DNA of 28,323 bases from Poseidonia sp. (GTDB lineage: Archaea; Thermoplasmatota; Poseidoniia; Poseidoniales; Poseidoniaceae): NCBI GenBank assembly GCA_034402455.1, contig DASCRS010000036.1, positions 1-28,323 of the forward strand, written 5' to 3'. Position 1 is the stretch's first letter, and each line of letters begins with the position of its first letter. Made by a program: the position numbers and the translations under genes. Below the pieces are notes generated by a model. That model made no database searches and was not told the origin of the DNA. It saw only the letters and a list, made by a program, of their open reading frames with translations. Below are positions 5,211-14,693 of the stretch, in pieces.

Positions 5211-5870
5211 CTAAGGGCTTCGTCTTCGGATTTCATCTGAGAAGAAATTCATGACTTTGCTTTCAACACGCTGAATTTGCGCTGAAAGTGTAGATTTGGA
5301 AACACCCAAAAGTTCAGCAAGTGTGGTGAGGGTGATCTTTCTTTGAGGGTCGTAAAATCCCTCTCTAATCGCAATATCATAGACTTGACGTTGTCGTTCT
5401 GTCAACAACCGGCTCGAGGTGCTTCGAGTGGACACTAATCGGTGTGGAATATTTTCGTGCTTAAATTCTTCAATGAGTTTTCTCATTTTGTGTCTATCGC
5501 ATTCAATCACCCAATCAACCCATCCATCACGAATTTCAAATGGGGTTCTTGGAATGACGTGCAATTGCAACAAAGGTTTGAGGAAACCCCCTCCTCCAGC
5601 ATTAATAGTTACATGATAGCGATTGCTTTCAACCATTTCAAAGTCTGCTACTCCAAGGTGAGTCATGATGGTGGTCGACAAATCTTCGGTTGAAGAAATG
5701 ATACCTGATCCTTGACCTTTGGCCAAGGCCATGTGTTCGTCTATTCGAATAATAGAAGAAGGATGGCTTCTGGAAACATCGCCAGCCCAATGTCCGTTGG
5801 GTAAACGTACTTCAATTCTCATTTGGTGCGTTGTTTTGTTCTCTTCTCGTGGTTGTGACTTTATCGCCAT
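5211..5870 (-). CDS. HTH_10 (bacterio-opsin activator Bat / DmsR / NarO-type HTH) transcriptional regulator
   Basis: C-terminal LTERQRQVYDIAIREGFYDPQRKITLTTLAELLGVSKSTLSAQIQRVESKV is the HTH_10 signature. Confidence 0.9.
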   Translation of the reverse strand: MAIKSQPREENKTTHQMRIEVRLPNGHWAGDVSRSHPSSIIRIDEHMALAKGQGSGIISSTEDLSTTIMTHLGVADFEMVESNRYHVTINAGGGGFLKPLLQLHVIPRTPFEIRDGWVDWVIECDRHKMRKLIEEFKHENIPHRLVSTRSTSSRLLTERQRQVYDIAIREGFYDPQRKITLTTLAELLGVSKSTLSAQIQRVESKVMNFFSDEIRRRSP

Positions 5871-5933: not shown

Positions 5934-5975
5934 ATAAATAGCATTTGGGCGAACATCTCTTTACGAACATGTTCG
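5934..5975 (-). promoter_or_regulatory. Promoter of the HTH_10 gene: TATA-like element plus two CGAACAT boxes, one a perfect palindrome
   Basis: CGAACATCT at 5950-5958 and the 14-bp palindrome ACGAACATGTTCGT at 5963-5976. The minus strand reads CTATTTAT at 5941-5934. Confidence 0.75.
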
Positions 5976-5984
5976 TGCTGCTCA

Positions 5985-6599
5985 TTAGTCATCCATTGAT
6001 GAGTTCATTTGTTCCATGGTGATGATGAAAATAGCCGCAAAACCTACTCCCAAAAGGATGGTTGCGATCTCTCCTGAAGTGAATCCATCCGGTCCATCAA
6101 CAATAACCGCCTTTTTTGATGTGGTTATGCTTGTCGTGTCTTTCGTCCAGTGGTCACCACTTCCAGCTATACCATCGCCATTCACAGCATTACCGTATGT
6201 TGTGAAGGTTACAACAGTACCTTTGGAAGGTGCGTTCCATTGAACCGTCCAAGTCCGCTCATCGTTTCCTTCAGAGGTATGTGTTGCCTCTCCATCAAGT
6301 ATTTGCGTGAATATGTCCATTGAACCAAGGGTTCCAGTTGAAGCCCGAAGATTGAATCCTCCAGTGTTCAATCCGCTCGATTCTGGACCAGTGAGATTCA
6401 CATAAACAGTGTATGATTCACCGTGAGTCCAATTGAGGGGAACGCCTTCCACTGTCAGAGCAGCCTCATCTGAAATAGCGCCATCTCCATGACATGTACA
6501 TCCTGAATTAACACCATTTATTCCACTACTATAGCCGTTTGATAGGGGTGCTATGAATATCAATAGAAATGCGCAACTTACTCCAATGAGGTACCTCAT
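5985..6599 (-). CDS. Secreted, C-terminally membrane-anchored choice-of-anchor V / Reeler-like protein with a CxCH motif
   Basis: Signal peptide, SGCTCHG, GGFNL, THT, WTVQWNAP, GNAVNGDG and a C-terminal TM helix. Clearly paralogous to the Cox1 N-terminal domain. Confidence 0.8.
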   Translation of the reverse strand: MRYLIGVSCAFLLIFIAPLSNGYSSGINGVNSGCTCHGDGAISDEAALTVEGVPLNWTHGESYTVYVNLTGPESSGLNTGGFNLRASTGTLGSMDIFTQILDGEATHTSEGNDERTWTVQWNAPSKGTVVTFTTYGNAVNGDGIAGSGDHWTKDTTSITTSKKAVIVDGPDGFTSGEIATILLGVGFAAIFIITMEQMNSSMDD

Positions 6600-6636
6600 G
6601 GTGGTGCCTTAACCTTCTATATCACAAAGGTTAGAA

Positions 6637-6656
6637 CGAACATGTAAGCCCAACAT
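6637..6656 (-). promoter_or_regulatory. CGAACATGT-N7-ACAT box upstream of the CxCH protein
   Basis: CGAACATGT at 6637-6645, 38 bp from the ATG at 6599. Second ACAT at 6653-6656. Confidence 0.75.
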
Positions 6657-7275: not shown

Positions 7276-7295
7276 CGAACATGTCCCACTTACAT
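7276..7295 (-). promoter_or_regulatory. CGAACATGT-N7-ACAT box upstream of the DoxX gene
   Basis: CGAACATGTCCCACTTACA matches the 14675 site at 18 of 19 positions. It overlaps only a spurious ORF extension. Confidence 0.75.
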
Positions 7296-7311: not shown

Positions 7312-7842
7312 CTAACTACCCTCTGACATATTCCCCGCAGTTGCACCTGCCTTGGGTTGAACAGAAAAAACACCGCTCTCAGTATTGGAGGTTTTTCCAC
7401 AAAAAATCGCACAGTCAACAATCACTGAACCAGCACCAGGGATGTCAATTTGACACATTCCAGTACTCGAAAAGGCATACTCTCCCGGTGCGGGTGCGGT
7501 AAAGACCACACTGCTAGGGTGAGTCAAATCAAATGAATATGAGAGATTCAAATCAGGTACAGTGAGTGAATCAGCGATGAAGTGCTGTTCGTCGTATTTC
7601 CTAAAATGGAGACGTACACATTCATCTTCCTCAAATTCAATTGATGCGGTTTCAAACGTCATGTCGTAATTGACACAACCGTCATCAATCATCGTTTGAT
7701 CTTTGCACTCCTCCAAGAAGGAGCCCACCTCTTCATCACAAATGCTGGTTGACTCAGTGAACATCAGATTCGATGAAAATGATATCAGAACCATAATGGC
7801 ACAAATCAAATGCCCTTTGGCAATTTTCCAATCATTCTCCAT
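7312..7842 (-). CDS. Membrane-anchored cupredoxin-like protein with a degenerate copper site
   Basis: N-terminal hydrophobic helix, then SLTVPDLNLSYSF..VVFTAPAPGEYAFSSTGMC, a cupredoxin-type core lacking the usual first Cys, His and Met. Start overlaps the nirK stop (7842, or 7848). Confidence 0.65.
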   Translation of the reverse strand: MENDWKIAKGHLICAIMVLISFSSNLMFTESTSICDEEVGSFLEECKDQTMIDDGCVNYDMTFETASIEFEEDECVRLHFRKYDEQHFIADSLTVPDLNLSYSFDLTHPSSVVFTAPAPGEYAFSSTGMCQIDIPGAGSVIVDCAIFCGKTSNTESGVFSVQPKAGATAGNMSEGS

Positions 7843-9253
7843 CTTCATCGTAAACGGTGGTGTTTTCCGCACCAGTCACAGAAATAATGCCTATGGCTCC
7901 TTTGTGGAAGGCACGTGTAAGGGCGTGGTCAACCAAGATGTAGTTCGCAGGAACTTCAAAGACAAGGTCAACAATAACAGCTCCACCTGGGGCAACTATA
8001 ACGGTTTGAACGCTTTCCAATGGAGCACTTTCGGTGCTTGCTAGATTGTAGGCTCGGTCGAAAATCTCACCAATGACGTGGAATGATGAAATGGTATTTG
8101 GACCTCCAACTCCGAAATAAATCCTCATTGATTCTCCGACATTTGCTTTGATGGTATCATCTCCAGTGAAGGTTGCAAATTTGCCATTGAACACGACGTA
8201 GGTTGGGCGTTCGTCAAAGAGCGCATCAACATCCATTTCTTGATGACCTTCGGTGCCAGGGCGCCATTTTGTGTACAAATCGCCCTGCATGACGTAAATT
8301 TCTTTGTCGACTTCCGGCAGTGGAACTTCGGGTTCAATGTAGATCATTCCGTACATGCCTTTGCTGATGTGAGTTGGGATGTCAGGTGTCGCGCAGTGGT
8401 ACACATAGAGTCCAGAATGCATGGCAAGGAAGGAGAATGATGTCGATTCTCCTGGAGCGGTCGTCGTTGCTTCAGCTCCGCCTCCTTGTCCAGTTACAGC
8501 ATGGAAATCCACGTTGTGATGCATCATGCTTTCAGCACGATTGCTGAAATGAACAATTACAGTATCGTTAATTCGTGCTCGGAACATTGGCCCTGGTACG
8601 GTTGCGTTGTACGTCCAATATGTGAAGGTCGTACCAGGTTCAAGCTCTGCAGTGACCTCAACAGCCTCAAGATAGATGTGAACCGTGGTTGATGTGTTGC
8701 GCCCTGTTGGTCCAGGAATATCGTAAGGGTCCTTGGCGATATTGTCAACATCGACGGTCAATGCTGGGCCGATGTTTTCAATTAGCGTTGTACTTGACTG
8801 CCCAGAACCAACAATGAGCGTTCCGACCATTCCACCAGCACGGTGCCCTGCAATGCTACAAAAGTATGCAAATTGGCCCTGAGTATCAGCAACAAAGGTG
8901 ACAGAATCTTCAGATCCAGATTCAGTCAATTGTTTTGTCGCAACATCATAACCTTCTACGGAAATATCGTGAAGATTCATTTCACCCATTTCCAAGGTTA
9001 TGGTCACACGATCACCGGTTTGTACCGATAGTTCGGGGTTGACCAGGCCGTCGATGGAACCACCAACACCGATGTAGGACATTTCCTTGCCTTTGAGTGT
9101 GAATTCAACGTCATTGTACATGACTACGCATTTACCATCAACCAGCTCTGTATCCTTGCCACAGGTTGTCGTCGTTTCTTCGTCTCCCAAACAGCCAGAG
9201 AACCCAGCAGTTATCATCACAAGTATCATTATCATTACATTTATTTTTCTCAT
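7832..9253 (-). CDS. nirK: Copper-containing nitrite reductase, lipoprotein, with an extra N-terminal type-1 cupredoxin domain
   Basis: HNVDFH, YVYHC..PTH..KGMYG, SSFHVIGEIFD and LVDH give all T1/T2 Cu ligands plus the catalytic Asp and His. The N-domain has LHD..YFCSIAGHRAGGM. Lipobox-like FSGC. GAGGTGG site before the ATG at 9253. Confidence 0.93.
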   Translation of the reverse strand: MRKINVMIMILVMITAGFSGCLGDEETTTTCGKDTELVDGKCVVMYNDVEFTLKGKEMSYIGVGGSIDGLVNPELSVQTGDRVTITLEMGEMNLHDISVEGYDVATKQLTESGSEDSVTFVADTQGQFAYFCSIAGHRAGGMVGTLIVGSGQSSTTLIENIGPALTVDVDNIAKDPYDIPGPTGRNTSTTVHIYLEAVEVTAELEPGTTFTYWTYNATVPGPMFRARINDTVIVHFSNRAESMMHHNVDFHAVTGQGGGAEATTTAPGESTSFSFLAMHSGLYVYHCATPDIPTHISKGMYGMIYIEPEVPLPEVDKEIYVMQGDLYTKWRPGTEGHQEMDVDALFDERPTYVVFNGKFATFTGDDTIKANVGESMRIYFGVGGPNTISSFHVIGEIFDRAYNLASTESAPLESVQTVIVAPGGAVIVDLVFEVPANYILVDHALTRAFHKGAIGIISVTGAENTTVYDEDGE

Positions 9254-9297
9254 CGTAATACCACCTCTAGTGGTTGTTTCGTGGTCTGTGTTGGGTA

Positions 9298-9324
9298 TTA
9301 TAGCCCCGGCCACGAACATATTAG
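9298..9324 (-). promoter_or_regulatory. nirK promoter: CGAACATATTAG box plus TATA-like CTATAA
   Basis: Box at 9313-9324. Minus-strand CTATAA at 9303-9298, the same box-to-TATA spacing as at cox3 and the CBS gene. Confidence 0.7.
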
Positions 9325-9342
9325 GCGGAGGTGTACGATTCC

Positions 9343-11514
9343 TCACTCGCCCTCTTGGGCGAACGGGTGACCAATAGAATGGTCAAAATTATGAGGTGGT
9401 GGAGGGGATGAAACTGTCCATTCAAGGGTTGACCCATTCCATGGGTTTGGCCCTGCGATCTCACCGTGTTTCATACTGCGCCAGAAGTTGTAAAAGAACA
9501 ACAATTGCCCAGCAAAGACCACAAAACCACCAATGGTAGCAATAAGATGAGCGACTTCCCAGCCAGCTGATTCTTGATAGAAATATATTCTTCGGGGCAT
9601 GTCAGTCAGACCAAACAAGGGAATCCATGTGAGGTTAATTCCAATAAATGTAATCCAGAAATGGTACATTCCCAATTTCTGGTCCATCATTCGACCGAAC
9701 ATCTTCGGGTACCAATAGTAAATTCCACCCAAAGTCATGACTGCAACGGCACCCAGCGTATAGTGGAAATGCGCAACTAGATAATAGGAGCCTCTCAAAT
9801 TGACATCCATGGCGACACTTGAGAGGTAGACACCAGTAATACCTCCAACAAGGAAAATACCGATGGCTCCGGTCACGAAGACAAGAGGAAGTTTTTTCCA
9901 ATCTGGCTTTGAGCGATAAAAAGTTGCTAGCAAGGAGAGATAAATCAAACCGAATGGAACGCTAACAAGTTCCGTTCCAATGGTTTCAATTTTCCTGAAT
10001 GTAGGATTGATTCCAGTGATGAACATATGGTGTGCCCATACCAATACCGATATGATTGAGGCAACAACCAAGGAATAAATGATGATTTTTCGTCCGTAAA
10101 GTGAACGACGGACCGTGTTGGGGATAATTTCCATGGCCATTCCCAATCCTGGTAGGAGGACAATGTAGACCTCGGGATGTCCGAAGAACCAGAAAATATG
10201 CAACCACCATGTTGTTCCATCGATGCTTGGGTCAAAGAACATGGTTCCAAAGACTCGGTCACCAACAAGCATGAGCACCGCTGCCATGAGTGCAGGGAAC
10301 ACCGCGAGCATCAAAATGACGGTAAAAAGAATGTTCCATGTGAACATGGGCATCTTCATCAATGGCATTCCAGGTGTTTTCATTTGCAAGATTGTGACAA
10401 GGAAATTGACCGTGCTAAACGTGACAGAAAGAATCAACAAAACCAGCCCAGCACCCGCCAGACTTATTCCAGCACCAGGGCTGTATTCTATGCTCGTCAA
10501 GGGGCTATAGAACGTCCAACCAGCATCCGCAGCGCCACCAAAGAAGAATCCACTTGCGGCAACGAGGCCGCCAAAGAGAATCATCCAAAATGACATTGCA
10601 TTGAGACGTGGGAAGGCCATGTCCTTGGCTCCAATTTGAAGAGGGACAATGTAATTTGCAAAAGCAAAGGACATTGGAGATACGGCGAACAGAACCATAA
10701 CGGCACCGTGCATGGTGACCGCTTCGTTGAACAACCCTCCAGTCATGAAATCATTATCCGGTACGATCAATTGGATTCGGATGAGCAAAGAGAGCGCAAG
10801 TCCGATAATGGTGAACAAGAGTGTGGTCCAAAGGTAGAGCATTCCGATGTCTTTGTGATTGGTCGTTGTCAACCAATGCATGACTGTTTTTTTGTCCACT
10901 GCTGGGTTTCTGACCATAAGTACAACCACTGCTGCAACCAAGCCAAGGATGGTCAAAACAATGAGCCACCAAGCAAGATTTGTGAAATCAATGATTGGTC
11001 CGCCGTCGGAATTTAACCCTTCTACCAAGATTTCTTGGCTTGACCAAAGGTCTCCAGCAGAATTCAAACCGTCTCCGTCAACGGCGTTGCCGAATACTTT
11101 GAACGAAATGTCGTCGGTGTCATCAAGAGGAGCATTCCATTGAACTGTCCACTCTCTTACATCGTTCCCCTCAAGTGTATGAGTCATCTCAATTCCCTTA
11201 TTTGGGCCATCAATCACTCGCGTGTGGTTGTCAAGCGAAACAAATTCGCCCCCATCAGCATGCAGGTTGAATCCACCAGAGTTTGCTCCGCTCGCTTCAG
11301 GACCCCCAGTGATGTTGATGGTGAGTTCGTAGCTTTCGGAGCCGTTGTAAACGTCTGGTAATCCTGTGATGGTTACTGTCACATCGTTGGATGCACTTCC
11401 TCCTCCGTGGCATGTACATCCACTGTCGACATTAGCGATTCCGTTGGAAACACCTTCCATCGTAGGGGCAAATGCAATCAAAACAAGAATTGCCATTGCG
11501 AGTAAACGCTTCAT
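9343..11514 (-). CDS. coxA: Heme-copper oxidase subunit I (A1-like) with a fused N-terminal extracellular CxCH domain
   Basis: TMHG, KDMAFPRLN, GWTFYSPL, WFFGHPEVY, WAHH, AHFHY and MPRR. Signal peptide, about 160-aa domain and an extra TM helix precede the core. ATGA overlap with cox2; GGAGGTGG site upstream. Confidence 0.95.
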   Translation of the reverse strand: MKRLLAMAILVLIAFAPTMEGVSNGIANVDSGCTCHGGGSASNDVTVTITGLPDVYNGSESYELTINITGGPEASGANSGGFNLHADGGEFVSLDNHTRVIDGPNKGIEMTHTLEGNDVREWTVQWNAPLDDTDDISFKVFGNAVDGDGLNSAGDLWSSQEILVEGLNSDGGPIIDFTNLAWWLIVLTILGLVAAVVVLMVRNPAVDKKTVMHWLTTTNHKDIGMLYLWTTLLFTIIGLALSLLIRIQLIVPDNDFMTGGLFNEAVTMHGAVMVLFAVSPMSFAFANYIVPLQIGAKDMAFPRLNAMSFWMILFGGLVAASGFFFGGAADAGWTFYSPLTSIEYSPGAGISLAGAGLVLLILSVTFSTVNFLVTILQMKTPGMPLMKMPMFTWNILFTVILMLAVFPALMAAVLMLVGDRVFGTMFFDPSIDGTTWWLHIFWFFGHPEVYIVLLPGLGMAMEIIPNTVRRSLYGRKIIIYSLVVASIISVLVWAHHMFITGINPTFRKIETIGTELVSVPFGLIYLSLLATFYRSKPDWKKLPLVFVTGAIGIFLVGGITGVYLSSVAMDVNLRGSYYLVAHFHYTLGAVAVMTLGGIYYWYPKMFGRMMDQKLGMYHFWITFIGINLTWIPLFGLTDMPRRIYFYQESAGWEVAHLIATIGGFVVFAGQLLFFYNFWRSMKHGEIAGPNPWNGSTLEWTVSSPPPPHNFDHSIGHPFAQEGE

Positions 11515-12245
11515 TGTGCACCACCTCCAGAATACCATTGGTCAAAATCGGATTTCTCCATAACTTCGAGTTCACCAATCATGACGGCATGGTCTGCCCC
11601 ACACAATTCATAACAACGAATTGGATAAGTTCCCGTTTCTTCAGCCAAAATCCATCCTATGTTTGGACGACTTGGGAGTGCATCAACCTTAATTCGGTGT
11701 TCTGGCAAGGCGAAGGAATGAAACACATCTCCGCCAATGACTTCGAACACGACTGGGGTGTCAACCGGGATTCGTAATGGTTCATCGGTGGCACTGGTGT
11801 AATTGATTCCATTGGGGTATTCGTATTCCCAATAATACTGCCATCCCGTGACTTGCACGGTGAACGATTCCTCCTCAAGTTCTGGTGTCTCAAAAAATTT
11901 GATTGAATCGAAAGTAACTGAAGAAAGGACGAGAAGAAATACAGTAATGATTACTGTAAGGCTCCATGAAAGTTTGACATTTCCTCGTTCAATAGGCATT
12001 TGTCCCAAGAAAGGAGCATCCGAAGGTTCGACTTCCACTTCAGTCGTTACCAACCAAAGGAAGAAACCGTAGACAGTAACGGCTACAATACATCCTAATG
12101 TCCAGTAAATCAAGAAGAGGTTGTCGTATACCTTGGCGTGTTCTCCAGTTCCAGGTTCTTGGAACCATTTGATGATTGAGCCAAAGGTCAGCATAAGAAT
12201 AACAATCGAGAAGAAAATGAGTCCAAATGCCCGTTTATTCTGCAT
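11511..12245 (-). CDS. coxB: Heme-copper oxidase subunit II, CuA type, no cytochrome c domain
   Basis: Two TM helices, GWQYYWEYEY, DVFHSF and CYELCGADHAVM. GGAGGT site and ATGA overlap with cox3. Confidence 0.95.
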   Translation of the reverse strand: MQNKRAFGLIFFSIVILMLTFGSIIKWFQEPGTGEHAKVYDNLFLIYWTLGCIVAVTVYGFFLWLVTTEVEVEPSDAPFLGQMPIERGNVKLSWSLTVIITVFLLVLSSVTFDSIKFFETPELEEESFTVQVTGWQYYWEYEYPNGINYTSATDEPLRIPVDTPVVFEVIGGDVFHSFALPEHRIKVDALPSRPNIGWILAEETGTYPIRCYELCGADHAVMIGELEVMEKSDFDQWYSGGGAQ

Positions 12246-13057
12246 CAGATAACCTCCACATATACAATCAAGAACAGCACCATCCAAACCACATCAACAA
12301 AGTGCCAATACCATACAATGGCTTGGAATGAATCCCTTCTTCCGTTGTCATAGTATCCTTTTTTGTGTAAGAAAGCGACCCCCCCTAAGGCAATGATTCC
12401 AACCAATACATGGAGTCCATGCAATCCTGTTAAGGCAAAGAAAGCGGTGCCATAAGGATGGTCTTTCCATGTGAACCCTGTATGCATATATTCATACAAT
12501 TGAATAGCCAAAAAGAGAGCACCAAAAGCGATGGTAATGTACAGATTCTTTCGAGAACGAACCAGTGAACCCCGGTCATGGGCGTGAAGAGAAAGGTGGG
12601 CTATGATTCCCGAAGAAAGCAATAATGCAGTGTTGAACATCACCAGCATCATGTTGTGGTGAATCTCTGCTGGTGGCCATGAAGATGAGGCGATTGCTCC
12701 ATCCCAAGAAACAGTGTGCCATTTCGCCCAAAACCAAAATGCAAAGAATCCCGCAAAAACAATGACTTCTGTGAGGATAATCCATACCATTGCCCACGAA
12801 GCATGGCCCATTTTGTGGGTTGAAATCTCACGAAATTGCCAGAGATCAACATCTTCTCTAACCCAAGAGAATATCGACCACACCAACATTGGAATTGCAA
12901 GGAAAGCGATGGGCCATATGAGTAAAGAAGCAAGTGTTAAGGTTACTGAAAGTGAAAAGATTAGAGGTACCAAACTGGAATGAACTTCTCCAGGTTCTCC
13001 GTGAGCATCCATGTTGATTTTCCAAAGCGATTCATTCGGTAAGTGTTCACCATCCAT
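12245..13057 (-). CDS. coxC: Heme-copper oxidase subunit III
   Basis: LTEVIVFAGFF, WPP, NTALLLSSG, FFALTGLHGLHV and YWHFVDVVW. Start 13057 is supported by promoter geometry. Confidence 0.93.
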   Translation of the reverse strand: MDGEHLPNESLWKINMDAHGEPGEVHSSLVPLIFSLSVTLTLASLLIWPIAFLAIPMLVWSIFSWVREDVDLWQFREISTHKMGHASWAMVWIILTEVIVFAGFFAFWFWAKWHTVSWDGAIASSSWPPAEIHHNMMLVMFNTALLLSSGIIAHLSLHAHDRGSLVRSRKNLYITIAFGALFLAIQLYEYMHTGFTWKDHPYGTAFFALTGLHGLHVLVGIIALGGVAFLHKKGYYDNGRRDSFQAIVWYWHFVDVVWMVLFLIVYVEVI

Positions 13058-13079
13058 GGATATTCCAGGGGAGAGAAGA

Positions 13080-13115
13080 ATATACATTGTAACACGAACA
13101 TGTAGGGGGGACATG
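13080..13115 (-). promoter_or_regulatory. cox operon promoter: CGAACATGT-N7-ACATG box plus TATA-like GTATAT
   Basis: Box at 13095-13103, 38 bp from the ATG at 13057. Second ACATG at 13111-13115. Minus-strand GTATAT at 13085-13080. Confidence 0.75.
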
Positions 13116-14659: not shown

Positions 14660-14693
14660 ATATAGACTTGAAAGCGAACATGTCCAACTTACA
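14660..14693 (-). promoter_or_regulatory. CBS gene promoter: CGAACATGT-N7-ACA box plus TATA-like CTATAT
   Basis: Box at 14675-14683, 38 bp from the ATG at 14637. Minus-strand CTATAT at 14665-14660. Confidence 0.75.

What the first reader, a model, noticed from the sequence alone, without database searches (positions are those of the whole stretch)
5985..6599. Free-standing paralog of the Cox1 N-terminal domain
Seen: shared blocks with the Cox1 extension are V.SGCTCHG, GGFNL, THT.EGND.R.WTVQWNAP, GNAV.GDG and GD.W. The protein has a signal peptide, a C-terminal anchor and its own regulon box. Inference: a duplicated membrane-tethered redox or metal-handling module that may serve NirK or a second partner.
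Basis: partly seen in the sequence, partly recalled or inferred. Interest (0 to 1): 0.7.

Follow-up and report, generated by a model that had tools for sequence, protein, structure and literature searches.

The report
Tethered Reeler-fold CxCH cytochrome candidate
This small outward-facing, membrane-anchored protein of a Marine Group II archaeon is one of several copies of a Reeler-type domain that most likely carries a covalently bound haem on an unusual Cys-x-Cys-His site and passes electrons to a second, separately regulated respiratory oxidase (and to nitrite reductase where that gene is present), but no experiment has yet shown the haem.

Summary
ORF 5985-6599(-) encodes a 204-aa protein with a signal peptide and a C-terminal anchor. 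Its one domain is 47% identical (E 5e-42) to the N-terminal extension of CoxI in the same cluster.

It is not a lone duplicate. Both are NCBIfam NF041895 "choice-of-anchor V" domains with a Reeler fold. This MAG holds at least 7 copies, and all 121 Poseidoniales genomes sampled hold copies.

Best reading (about 0.6): a membrane-tethered mono-haem c-type cytochrome with a CxCH site.
- Cys36-His37 are invariant, while the first Cys varies in spacing or is absent.
- Bathyarchaeial orthologues alternate CXXCH and CXCH and lie beside ccmABCEF.
- In a phylum sample the family occurs only in genomes with PF01578 (51 of 82 against 0 of 69).
- A closed relative has variant System I (CcmC, CcmE, CcmF) but no CXXCH cytochrome.
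- Sister copies head the Rieske/cytochrome b operon and are fused to CoxI.

Its constant neighbours are the oxidase genes and an HTH_10 regulator, all carrying a conserved CGAACATGT box. nirK is present in only 4 of 8 syntenic modules, so a specific role for NirK is weakly supported.

There is no biochemistry. Reeler-fold CxxCH cytochromes were predicted for Ignicoccus in 2015. This scan had already flagged the MGII family in at least 14 other genomes.

The parts
5985..6599 (-). Gene for the free-standing 204-aa choice-of-anchor V (Reeler-fold) protein
   Evidence: ORF. NF041895 scores 82 bits against a cut-off of 42. AF2 model pLDDT 91.6.
6534..6599 (-). Signal-peptide-like N-terminus (residues 1 to about 22)
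   Evidence: Read from the sequence: MR, then a hydrophobic stretch, then PLSNG. AF2 helix 2-20. The cleavage site is inferred, not predicted by a dedicated tool.
6120..6533 (-). Reeler-like beta-sandwich domain (residues about 23-160)
   Evidence: Foldseek matches the F-spondin reeler domain (2zot/3coo) at E 8e-6. VIA-align gives Z 10.0 to 3coo and Z 9.9 and 9.4 to cytochrome f.
6489..6500 (-). Cys34-Thr-Cys36-His37 (CxCH), the proposed haem-attachment site with proximal His
   Evidence: C36 and H37 are invariant and C34 is present in 103 of 105 aligned homologues. Codons read.
6279..6281 (-). His107 in the THT block, the candidate distal ligand
   Evidence: His in 100 of 105 homologues, Gln in 4 and Asp in 1. 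Kletzin 2015 names a conserved His111 as a distal-ligand candidate in its Ignicoccus model; equivalence to His107 is my reading.
6015..6068 (-). C-terminal transmembrane anchor (residues about 178-195)
   Evidence: Hydrophobic stretch IATILLGVGFAAIFIITM. AF2 helix 175-203.
6637..6645 (+). CGAACATGT box 38 nt upstream of the ATG (reads ACATGTTCG on the coding strand)
   Evidence: conserved in position upstream of the orthologues.
6611..6632 (.). Inverted repeat AACCTT-N10-AAGGTT between the box and the start codon
   Evidence: Unique in the window. It is not conserved as such in the orthologous promoters, so its role is unknown.
10894..11514 (-). Paralogous choice-of-anchor V domain forming the N-terminal extension of CoxI (CTCH site)
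   Evidence: NF041895 scores 87 bits. 47% identical to the free-standing protein.
9343..11538 (-). CoxI fusion protein (731 aa)
   Evidence: PF00115 at E 1.6e-125 over residues 230-673.
11511..13114 (-). cox2 and cox3 of the same module
   Evidence: PF00116 and PF00510.
7832..9346 (-). Copper nitrite reductase NirK with an extra N-terminal cupredoxin domain; a facultative member of the module
   Evidence: TIGR02376 scores 331 bits against a cut-off of 296. Absent from 4 of 8 syntenic modules.
5211..5870 (-). HTH_10 regulator, always next to the free-standing gene
   Evidence: PF04967 at E 2.9e-16. Synteny.
5964..5975 (.). Palindromic box CGAACATGTTCG upstream of the HTH_10 gene
   Evidence: The same palindrome is found in L011, L012 and L133-L137.

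Best explanation
The gene encodes an exported protein held on the outer face of the membrane by a C-terminal helix. Its single Reeler-fold (choice-of-anchor V) domain most likely binds one haem covalently through Cys34 and Cys36 of a CxCH site. His37 would be the proximal ligand and His107 the likely distal ligand. Attachment would be by the archaeal variant System I (CcmC, CcmE with CxxxY, CcmF). It would act as a tethered one-electron carrier. It would take electrons from the Rieske/cytochrome b complex, whose operon is headed by a sister copy. It would pass them to the HTH_10-regulated second haem-copper oxidase, whose CoxI carries another sister copy, and to NirK in genomes where nirK has been inserted into the module.

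Shown: paralogy, fold, motif conservation, synteny, the shared promoter box, and the presence of Ccm without canonical cytochromes c. Inferred: haem binding, the axial ligands, and the direction and partners of electron transfer.
For: 1. Motif behaviour is that of a haem-c site. C36-H37 are invariant in 105 homologues. The first Cys sits at spacing 1 in 139 of 156 sequences, but also at spacing 2, 4, 6 or 9, or is replaced (ATCH).
2. In a Bathyarchaeial orthologous group (54-81% identity) the site alternates between canonical CXXCH and CXCH. The gene lies directly beside ccmB-ccmA-ccmE-ccmC and ccmF in L125 and L129, and 3.5 kb from them in L130/L131.
3. In the phylum sample of 151 genomes, all 51 genomes with the domain have PF01578. 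None of the 69 genomes without PF01578 has the domain.
4. All 121 Poseidoniales genomes sampled have both the domain and PF01578. CcmE is present in the four genomes tested and has CPSKY in the two inspected (own and G003). PF13442 is over its cut-off in 0 of 61 genomes and PF00034 in 0 of 4.
5. In the closed genome G003 no CXXCH protein is a cytochrome c. The exported proteins with a CxCH site are six family members and the Rieske protein; a seventh, weak member has CX3CH.
6. Sister copies sit where cytochrome c domains sit elsewhere. One is fused to CoxI. One is the first gene of the operon choice-V / Rieske-like / cytochrome b. Others are fused to a plastocyanin-like domain or to DUF4079, and the fold matches part of a protein annotated as cytochrome c peroxidase.
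7. Fold: the Reeler domain (Z 10.0) and cytochrome f (Z 9.9 and 9.4, 124-130 residues aligned, including the N-terminal segment that carries the site) are the top matches.
8. The module cox3-cox2-cox1(fusion)-...-this gene-HTH_10 and its box are conserved in two Poseidoniales families.
9. Literature: MGII have cytochrome b and Rieske genes but no canonical bc1 (PMC6336850). Reeler-fold CxxCH proteins of Ignicoccus were predicted to be monohaem cytochromes c (PMC4429474).
Against: - No biochemical evidence exists for this family. Covalent haem on a CxCH site has not, to my knowledge, been demonstrated for any protein, and the literature searches found none.
- Eukaryotic Reeler domains, such as that of F-spondin, are haem-free.
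- Some homologues are fused to non-redox parts: Endonuclease I and long Ig-like stalks.
- His107 is Gln in the Bathyarchaeial members next to ccm, so the distal ligand is uncertain.
- The cytochrome f match is no stronger than matches to generic beta-sandwiches (cohesin Z 9.5).
- The co-occurrence with Ccm could partly reflect a shared respiratory lifestyle, and related genomes are not independent observations.
- Model coordinates could not be read, so the distance between His37 and His107 was not checked.
- No RNA run holding the locus was listed.
Confidence: 0.6

Rival explanations
1. The protein is a copper-handling protein. The Cys-x-Cys-His site, with His107, binds Cu(I) or Cu(II). The tethered domain would deliver or buffer copper for CuA/CuB of the oxidase and for the type 1 and type 2 sites of NirK, in the manner of PCuAC, Sco or YcnI.
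For: It sits at the end of a cox (and sometimes nirK) cluster, where copper chaperones are often encoded. It is a membrane-tethered beta-sandwich, like PCuAC and YcnI; YcnI appears among the fold matches at Z 7.4. Cys and His are good copper ligands. PCuAC (PF04314) was not found in 5 genomes searched, so that role is unfilled.
Against: - The same domain is permanently fused to CoxI and heads the copper-free Rieske/cytochrome b operon.
- Bathyarchaeial orthologues lie beside ccm genes.
- The family is confined to Ccm-bearing genomes.
- The variable Cys spacing and single-Cys variants are atypical of a fixed metal site.
- Sco1/SenC is present in all 5 genomes searched, in G003 next to the housekeeping cox genes.
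- There is no Pfam or NCBIfam match to chaperone families.
Confidence: 0.1
2. The domain carries no cofactor and is structural. In this reading the Reeler-type surface domain uses its Cys pair as a disulfide, and the protein serves as an assembly, docking or cell-surface subunit rather than an electron carrier.
For: The closest solved fold is the haem-free F-spondin reeler domain. Many homologues sit at the tip of long Ig-like stalks or are fused to a nuclease. The NCBIfam name reflects varied surface anchors.
Against: - A disulfide does not explain the invariant His next to the second Cys, nor variants that keep only that Cys.
- It does not explain the ccm adjacency.
- It does not explain why an order with a complete Ccm system has no other candidate substrate.
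Confidence: 0.1
3. The protein binds haem but acts as a sensor. The outward-facing domain would sense O2, NO or redox state and control the adjacent HTH_10 regulator, which has no recognisable sensor domain, rather than carry electrons.
For: The gene is always directly next to the HTH_10 gene and has its own copy of the box. The regulator's N-terminal 150 residues match no known sensor domain.
Against: The cytoplasmic tail is only about 9 residues (MEQMNSSMDD), so there is no evident way to signal to a soluble regulator. Sister copies are built into complex III and IV genes, which argues for electron transfer.
Confidence: 0.07

Closest known systems
Predicted Reeler-fold monohaem cytochromes c of Desulfurococcales (Kletzin et al. 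2015, PMC4429474, cluster 38: Igni_0759, Igni_1052, Hbut_1376, Pyrfu_1333)
   Same: Signal peptide, a Cys/Cys/His site near the N-terminus, a beta-sandwich modelled on the F-spondin reelin-N domain (3COO) with PF02014, a conserved distal-His candidate, and a C-terminal TM helix in most members. The sequences printed in Table S1 show the same blocks by eye: GC..CH, GLP..Y.PG, GGF, THT.EG, R.W.V.W.AP and ANGDG.
   Different: Those proteins have canonical CxxCH, while this one has CxCH. They are only predictions, with no haem shown. They were not linked to an oxidase, to a Rieske/cytochrome b operon or to Marine Group II.
NCBIfam NF041895 choice-of-anchor V domain, and the Pfam Reeler domain PF02014 (F-spondin reeler, PDB 2ZOT/3COO)
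   Same: The protein is a member of NF041895 by HMM score (82 bits against 42). It shares the Reeler fold. Relatives P0056 and P0125 reach the PF02014 gathering score.
   Different: The database entries assign no function. Animal Reeler domains lack the CxCH site and bind heparin or microbial surfaces rather than a redox cofactor (the latter from my own knowledge).
Membrane-anchored cytochromes c (cytochrome cy of Rhodobacter, c552 of Paracoccus) and the cytochrome c domain of caa3 oxidases (my own knowledge)
   Same: The proposed job is the same: a tethered one-haem carrier between the bc-type complex and a terminal oxidase or NirK, and a carrier domain fused to an oxidase subunit.
   Different: The fold is unrelated (class I cytochromes are all-alpha). 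Those proteins use CxxCH with His/Met ligation. In caa3 oxidases the carrier is fused to subunit II, not subunit I.
Cytochrome f of b6f complexes
   Same: A beta-sandwich c-type cytochrome with the haem site in the N-terminal segment and a C-terminal TM anchor. It is the second-best structural match (Z 9.9 and 9.4). A sister copy heads the Rieske/cytochrome b operon.
   Different: There is no sequence-family match. Cytochrome f has CxxCH, uses the N-terminal amino group as a ligand, and has an extra small domain. The Z score is no higher than for generic sandwich folds.
Copper chaperones PCuAC and Sco1/SenC
   Same: A tethered extracytoplasmic domain with Cys and His residues, encoded with cox genes.
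   Different: There is no HMM match. Sco is encoded separately. The family's other genomic contexts are unrelated to copper.

Membership tests
NCBIfam NF041895 (choice-of-anchor V domain) | HMM score above the curated cut-off of 42 bits | tested here: met
   82.0 bits over residues 16-155. The CoxI extension scores 87.2 bits.
Pfam PF02014 Reeler domain | HMM score above the gathering threshold of 21 bits | tested here: not met
   No Pfam hit at E <= 0.1 for this protein. Relatives P0056 (25.3 bits) and P0125 (22.5 bits) do pass, so the link is through intermediates.
Pfam PF02014 Reeler domain | Reeler beta-sandwich fold | tested here: met
   Foldseek gives E 8e-6 to 2zot/3coo, with TM by target 0.57-0.59. 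VIA-align gives Z 10.0, the top of 48,161 chains.
c-type cytochromes | CxxCH or an accepted variant, with the His serving as axial ligand | tested here: inconclusive
   The site is CTCH, with one residue between the cysteines. Close Bathyarchaeial orthologues alternate CXXCH and CXCH. CxCH itself is not an established haem motif.
c-type cytochromes | Export to the extracytoplasmic side | tested here: met
   Signal-peptide-like N-terminus and C-terminal TM helix, judged from the sequence and the model only.
c-type cytochromes | A cytochrome c maturation system in the genome | tested here: met
   PF01578 matches twice in the own genome. CcmE PF03100 is present and carries CPSKY.
c-type cytochromes | Covalently bound haem | not testable with these tools
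   This needs haem staining, a pyridine haemochrome spectrum or mass spectrometry.
Kletzin 2015 cluster 38 (predicted Reeler-fold monohaem cytochromes c) | Sequence similarity to Igni_0759, Igni_1052, Hbut_1376 and Pyrfu_1333 | not tested
   The shared blocks were seen by eye in Table S1. No formal comparison was run because the sequences have no reference id.
Cytochrome f (PF16639/PF01333) | Sequence-family match | tested here: not met
   No Pfam hit.
Cytochrome f (PF16639/PF01333) | Fold of the large domain with an N-terminal haem segment | tested here: inconclusive
   Z 9.9 (2jxm_B, 130 residues aligned, model 23-162) and Z 9.4 (4ogq_C). Cohesins score 9.5.
Copper chaperones PCuAC (PF04314) and Sco1/SenC (PF02630) | HMM match | tested here: not met
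   No Pfam hit for this protein. Sco is encoded elsewhere in the genome.

The most novel reading that the evidence does not exclude
CxCH is a genuine new covalent haem-attachment motif processed by the archaeal variant System I. Reeler-fold cytochromes would then be the entire c-type cytochrome complement of Marine Group II archaea, replacing cytochrome c1, the mobile cytochrome c and the caa3-type fused domain. The free-standing copy would be the tethered shuttle of a separately regulated (HTH_10/palindrome box) alternative oxidase and NirK branch.
Probability: 0.5. Interest if true: 0.8.

Novelty: new variant of a known kind. Interest (0 to 1): 0.6.

Why it matters
Marine Group II archaea are among the most abundant surface-ocean microbes. 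Published reconstructions note that they have a Rieske/cytochrome b pair and cytochrome c oxidases but no canonical bc1 (PMC6336850); no canonical cytochrome c family was found in the genomes searched here.

If this family binds haem c, three things follow.
- It supplies the missing electron-transfer links in the MGII respiratory chain.
- It adds a beta-sandwich class of c-type cytochromes.
- It extends the rules of covalent haem attachment to a one-residue Cys spacing.

The free-standing copy then defines a compact module of oxidase (with or without nirK), carrier and regulator. Its patchy distribution, roughly 19 of 121 species genomes at E <= 1e-30, may mark adaptation to particular oxygen or nitrite regimes.

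The claim can be tested directly with one recombinant protein.

Tried and rejected
- Pfam and the PDB sequence search gave nothing for the protein itself.
- The search for related loci with the 105-sequence alignment failed because no stretch was conserved enough, so no named bacterial genomes were obtained.
- The contexts of P0081, P0060, P0135, P0151 and P0101 were uninformative: short contigs or no DNA held.
- Literature searches for CXCH or CX1CH haem motifs, and for Reeler plus c-type cytochrome, found no description.
- No RNA run holding the locus was listed, so expression and transcript starts were not examined, and read laying was not used.
- Model coordinates are not exposed, so the His37-His107 distance and the size of the pocket could not be measured.
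- I considered and rejected a recent duplication from the CoxI extension, because the tree places the two in separate supported clades.
- I considered and rejected a dedicated NirK partner, because nirK is missing from half of the syntenic modules.
- I considered the inverted repeat at 6611-6632 as an operator. It is unique to this window and not conserved, so no role is claimed.
- A formal comparison with the Ignicoccus proteins was left out because their sequences have no reference id.

Full report
**The object.** The minus-strand ORF 5985..6599 encodes 204 residues. It has a signal-peptide-like N-terminus, a domain of about 140 residues, a linker of about 15 residues, a hydrophobic C-terminal helix (about 178-195) and a 9-residue acidic tail.
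- BLASTP against the 731-aa CoxI of the same cluster (9343..11538, -) gives 47% identity over 161 residues, E 5e-42.
- Pfam finds nothing.
- NCBIfam NF041895, the choice-of-anchor V domain, matches this protein (82 bits) and the CoxI extension (87 bits) against a cut-off of 42.

**A family, not a single duplication.** The 55%-complete MAG holds 7 NF041895 matches.
- Two are in the window.
- One is on a second CoxI, which follows a cox2 (L004).
- One is a 302-aa protein upstream of a small membrane protein and a Rieske-type protein (L002).
- One is the N-terminus of a surface protein of more than 830 aa with Ig-like repeats. There is also a weak CX3CH member and a partial copy.
- All 121 Poseidoniales genomes sampled (at least 80% complete) have the domain.
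- In a tree, the free-standing clade (window plus P0001-P0004, support 97/99) and the CoxI-extension clade of the same module (100/99) are distinct, on an unresolved backbone. A recent duplication of one from the other is therefore not shown.

**Fold.** An AF2 model built from 105 homologues has mean pLDDT 91.6.
- Foldseek's best solved match is the F-spondin reeler domain (E 8e-6).
- AlphaFold DB clusters are named Reelin-domain proteins, and one match is a 635-aa protein annotated as cytochrome c peroxidase.
- Two relatives pass the Pfam Reeler threshold.
- An exhaustive VIA-align search ranks the Reelin-N domain first (Z 10.0). Cytochrome f ranks second and fourth (Z 9.9 and 9.4, with 130 and 124 residues aligned, starting in the N-terminal segment that carries the Cys/His site).
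- Cohesins score 9.5, so the cytochrome f likeness is only suggestive.

**The site.**
- Among the 156 proteins then held (the hits), 139 have CxCH and 4 have CxxCH. Others have CX4CH, CX6CH or CX9CH, and two keep only the second Cys (ATCH).
- In the 105-sequence alignment, C36, H37, G81 and W117 are invariant. C34 is present in 103 of 105. H107 is His in 100, Gln in 4 and Asp in 1.
- An invariant Cys-His preceded by a Cys at variable distance is how haem-c sites vary. It is not how fixed metal sites or disulfides usually behave (established knowledge of c-type cytochromes).

**Independent links to haem-c maturation.**
1. A Bathyarchaeial orthologous group (P0129, P0157-P0164; 54-81% identity; all clear NF041895 members where tested, P0129 at 122 bits) alternates between CTPCH, CAPCH or CGGCH and CDCH or CTCH. 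The gene lies directly beside ccmB-ccmA-ccmE-ccmC and ccmF in L125 and L129, and 3.5 kb from them in L130/L131. The L129 protein is itself a CTCH form.
2. In a sample of 151 genomes of the phylum, all 51 genomes with the domain have PF01578, and none of the 69 genomes without PF01578 has the domain. Outside Poseidoniales the figures are 19 of 50 against 0 of 69. Related genomes are not independent and lifestyle is a confounder, but this test could have failed and did not.
3. All 121 Poseidoniales genomes have PF01578, usually one CcmF-like frame of 800-900 aa and one CcmC-like frame of about 245 aa. CcmE is present in the four genomes tested and carries the archaeal CxxxY variant, CPSKY, in the two inspected (own and G003).
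4. No canonical cytochrome c family was found: PF13442 is over its cut-off in 0 of 61 genomes at least 90% complete, and PF00034 in 0 of 4.
5. I assembled the closed 2,064,136-bp genome of a same-family relative (G003) from 104 fetched pieces and took a census of it. The ten ORFs with CXXCH are UvrA, zinc ribbons, a glycosyltransferase, two thioredoxin-like proteins, an Fe-S protein and the like. None is a cytochrome c. The exported proteins with a CxCH site are six family members and the Rieske protein; a seventh, weak member has CX3CH.

A complete maturation system therefore has no other visible substrate.

**Position in the respiratory genes.**
- In G003 the order is choice-V protein (282 aa, NF041895 at 80 bits), a 148-aa membrane protein, a Rieske-like protein (CTHLCC...CICH; TIGR01416 at E 4e-9, below its cut-off), cytochrome b (PF00033 at E 9e-42), then a 942-aa Fer4/CCG protein. 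The own-genome contig C136 shows the first three genes before it ends.
- Tully 2019 notes that MGII have cytochrome b and Rieske genes but lack a canonical bc1 (PMC6336850).
- Other architectures in the family are fusions to COX1, to CARDB plus a plastocyanin-like domain, to Ig-like repeats plus DUF4079, to Endonuclease I, and to many Ig-like stalks.

**The module that holds this gene.**
- Orthologues at 52-89% identity are all 205 aa.
- Eight syntenic modules were compared: the window, L008, L011, L133 (G100), L134 (G108), L135 (G035), L136 (G119) and L137 (G081). The last three belong to the other large family of the order.
- All eight have cox3-cox2-cox1(fusion) ... free-standing gene-HTH_10.
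- nirK (TIGR02376 at 331 bits against 296) lies between cox1 and the free-standing gene in four modules. In some of these it is accompanied by a cupredoxin-like and a DoxX-like gene. It is absent in the other four, where the free-standing gene follows cox1 by 30-146 bp.
- The constant partners are therefore the oxidase and the regulator.
- About 19 of 121 species genomes have a hit at E <= 1e-30, so the module is accessory.
- The box CGAACATGT, often the palindrome CGAACATGTTCG, lies 38 nt upstream of this gene's ATG. It also lies upstream of cox3, the HTH_10 gene and others in the window.
- It is at the same position upstream of the orthologues despite diverged flanks, and is present in the other family's modules.

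**Mechanism proposed.** The protein is a tethered one-haem carrier. The short linker would hold the domain at about the same height above the membrane as the CoxI-fused sister domain, whose own linker is about 20 residues. This would allow lateral haem-to-haem transfer into the oxidase. Where nirK is present, the extra cupredoxin domain of NirK is a plausible second acceptor. Electrons would come from the complex III-like unit, whose own sister subunit has a longer linker. All of this is inference.

**Rivals.**
- A copper chaperone fits the location and the ligands. It does not fit the fusion to CoxI, the Rieske/cytochrome b context, the ccm adjacency or the variable spacing. Sco is encoded separately, and PCuAC was not found.
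- A cofactor-free Reeler surface module fits the nuclease and stalk fusions. It does not fit the invariant Cys-His pair or the ccm links.
- A sensor for the HTH_10 regulator is conceivable but has no visible signalling route.

**Comparison with what is known.**
- Kletzin et al. 2015 predicted that four Desulfurococcales proteins (Igni_0759 and relatives) are monohaem cytochromes c. They modelled them on the F-spondin reelin-N domain, with an N-terminal CxxCH and a conserved distal-His candidate. They remarked that bacterial homologues keep the motif, 'sometimes with different spacing' (PMC4429474).
- The sequences printed there share this family's blocks by eye. I did not run a formal comparison.
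- That work is a prediction without biochemistry. It does not cover CxCH, MGII, the oxidase fusion or the complex III position.
- I found no paper describing these points.
- This scan had already flagged the MGII family in at least 14 other genomes, with similar readings. I reached the ccm, census and module results independently here.

**Verdict.** The best explanation has confidence 0.6. The novelty class is a new variant of a known, predicted kind. Interest is 0.6.

Noticed in passing
window 5964-5975, 6637-6645, 7276-7284, 13095-13103, 14675-14683; also L008, L011, L012, L133-L137: The palindromic box CGAACATGTTCG (or half-site CGAACATGT) lies upstream of cox3, the free-standing gene, the HTH_10 gene and other genes of the module. 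It is conserved across two Poseidoniales families, so it is probably the operator of the HTH_10 regulator.
   Followed up: partly
window 7832-9346 (-); L134-L137: nirK (TIGR02376 above its cut-off, with an extra N-terminal cupredoxin domain) is a facultative insertion between cox1 and the free-standing gene. It is present in 4 of the 8 modules compared.
   Followed up: partly
L132 (G003:956500-966500), minus strand: The complex III-like operon runs: choice-V protein, DUF7318-like membrane protein, Rieske-like protein, cytochrome b (288 aa), then a 942-aa protein with Fer4 and CCG (HdrD-like) domains. This is an unusual partner for a Rieske/cytochrome b unit.
   Followed up: partly
own genome C65:852-1133 (-); C2:5429-7048; G003:1954659-1957325: The cytochrome c maturation system is of the archaeal variant type: CcmE carries CPSKY (CxxxY). 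The CcmF-like proteins of the order are long (about 800-900 aa, against about 650 in Bathyarchaeia loci L125 and L129).
   Followed up: partly
L005/L007 (own genome C84): A surface protein of more than 830 aa carries a choice-V CSCH domain at the tip of a long stalk of Ig-like repeats with a C-terminal anchor. Next to it is a 325-aa weak family member with CGGACH. Such a domain held far from the membrane fits poorly with a simple carrier role.
   Followed up: no
P0101, P0030, P0125 (homologues): Other fusions of the domain are to Big_7 repeats plus a DUF4079 membrane domain, to CARDB plus a plastocyanin-like domain, and to Endonuclease I. The first recalls, from memory, the Reeler-DOMON-cytochrome b561 layout of animal ferric-chelate reductase 1.
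   Followed up: no
L133 8652-10009 and L134 7916-9251: In genus g3 the module ends with two tandem HTH_10 genes. One is 65-66% identical to the window's regulator and the other about 30%.
   Followed up: no
P0129, P0157-P0164 C-termini: The Bathyarchaeial members end in IPEFPG followed by a hydrophobic helix and a basic tail, which looks like a PEF-CTERM-type archaeosortase signal. The window protein instead has a plain helix with an acidic tail.
   Followed up: no
G003:35918-37630 (-): A 570-aa ORF with a Sco1/SenC domain lies directly downstream of the housekeeping cox2-cox1(fusion)-456-aa gene cluster.
   Followed up: no
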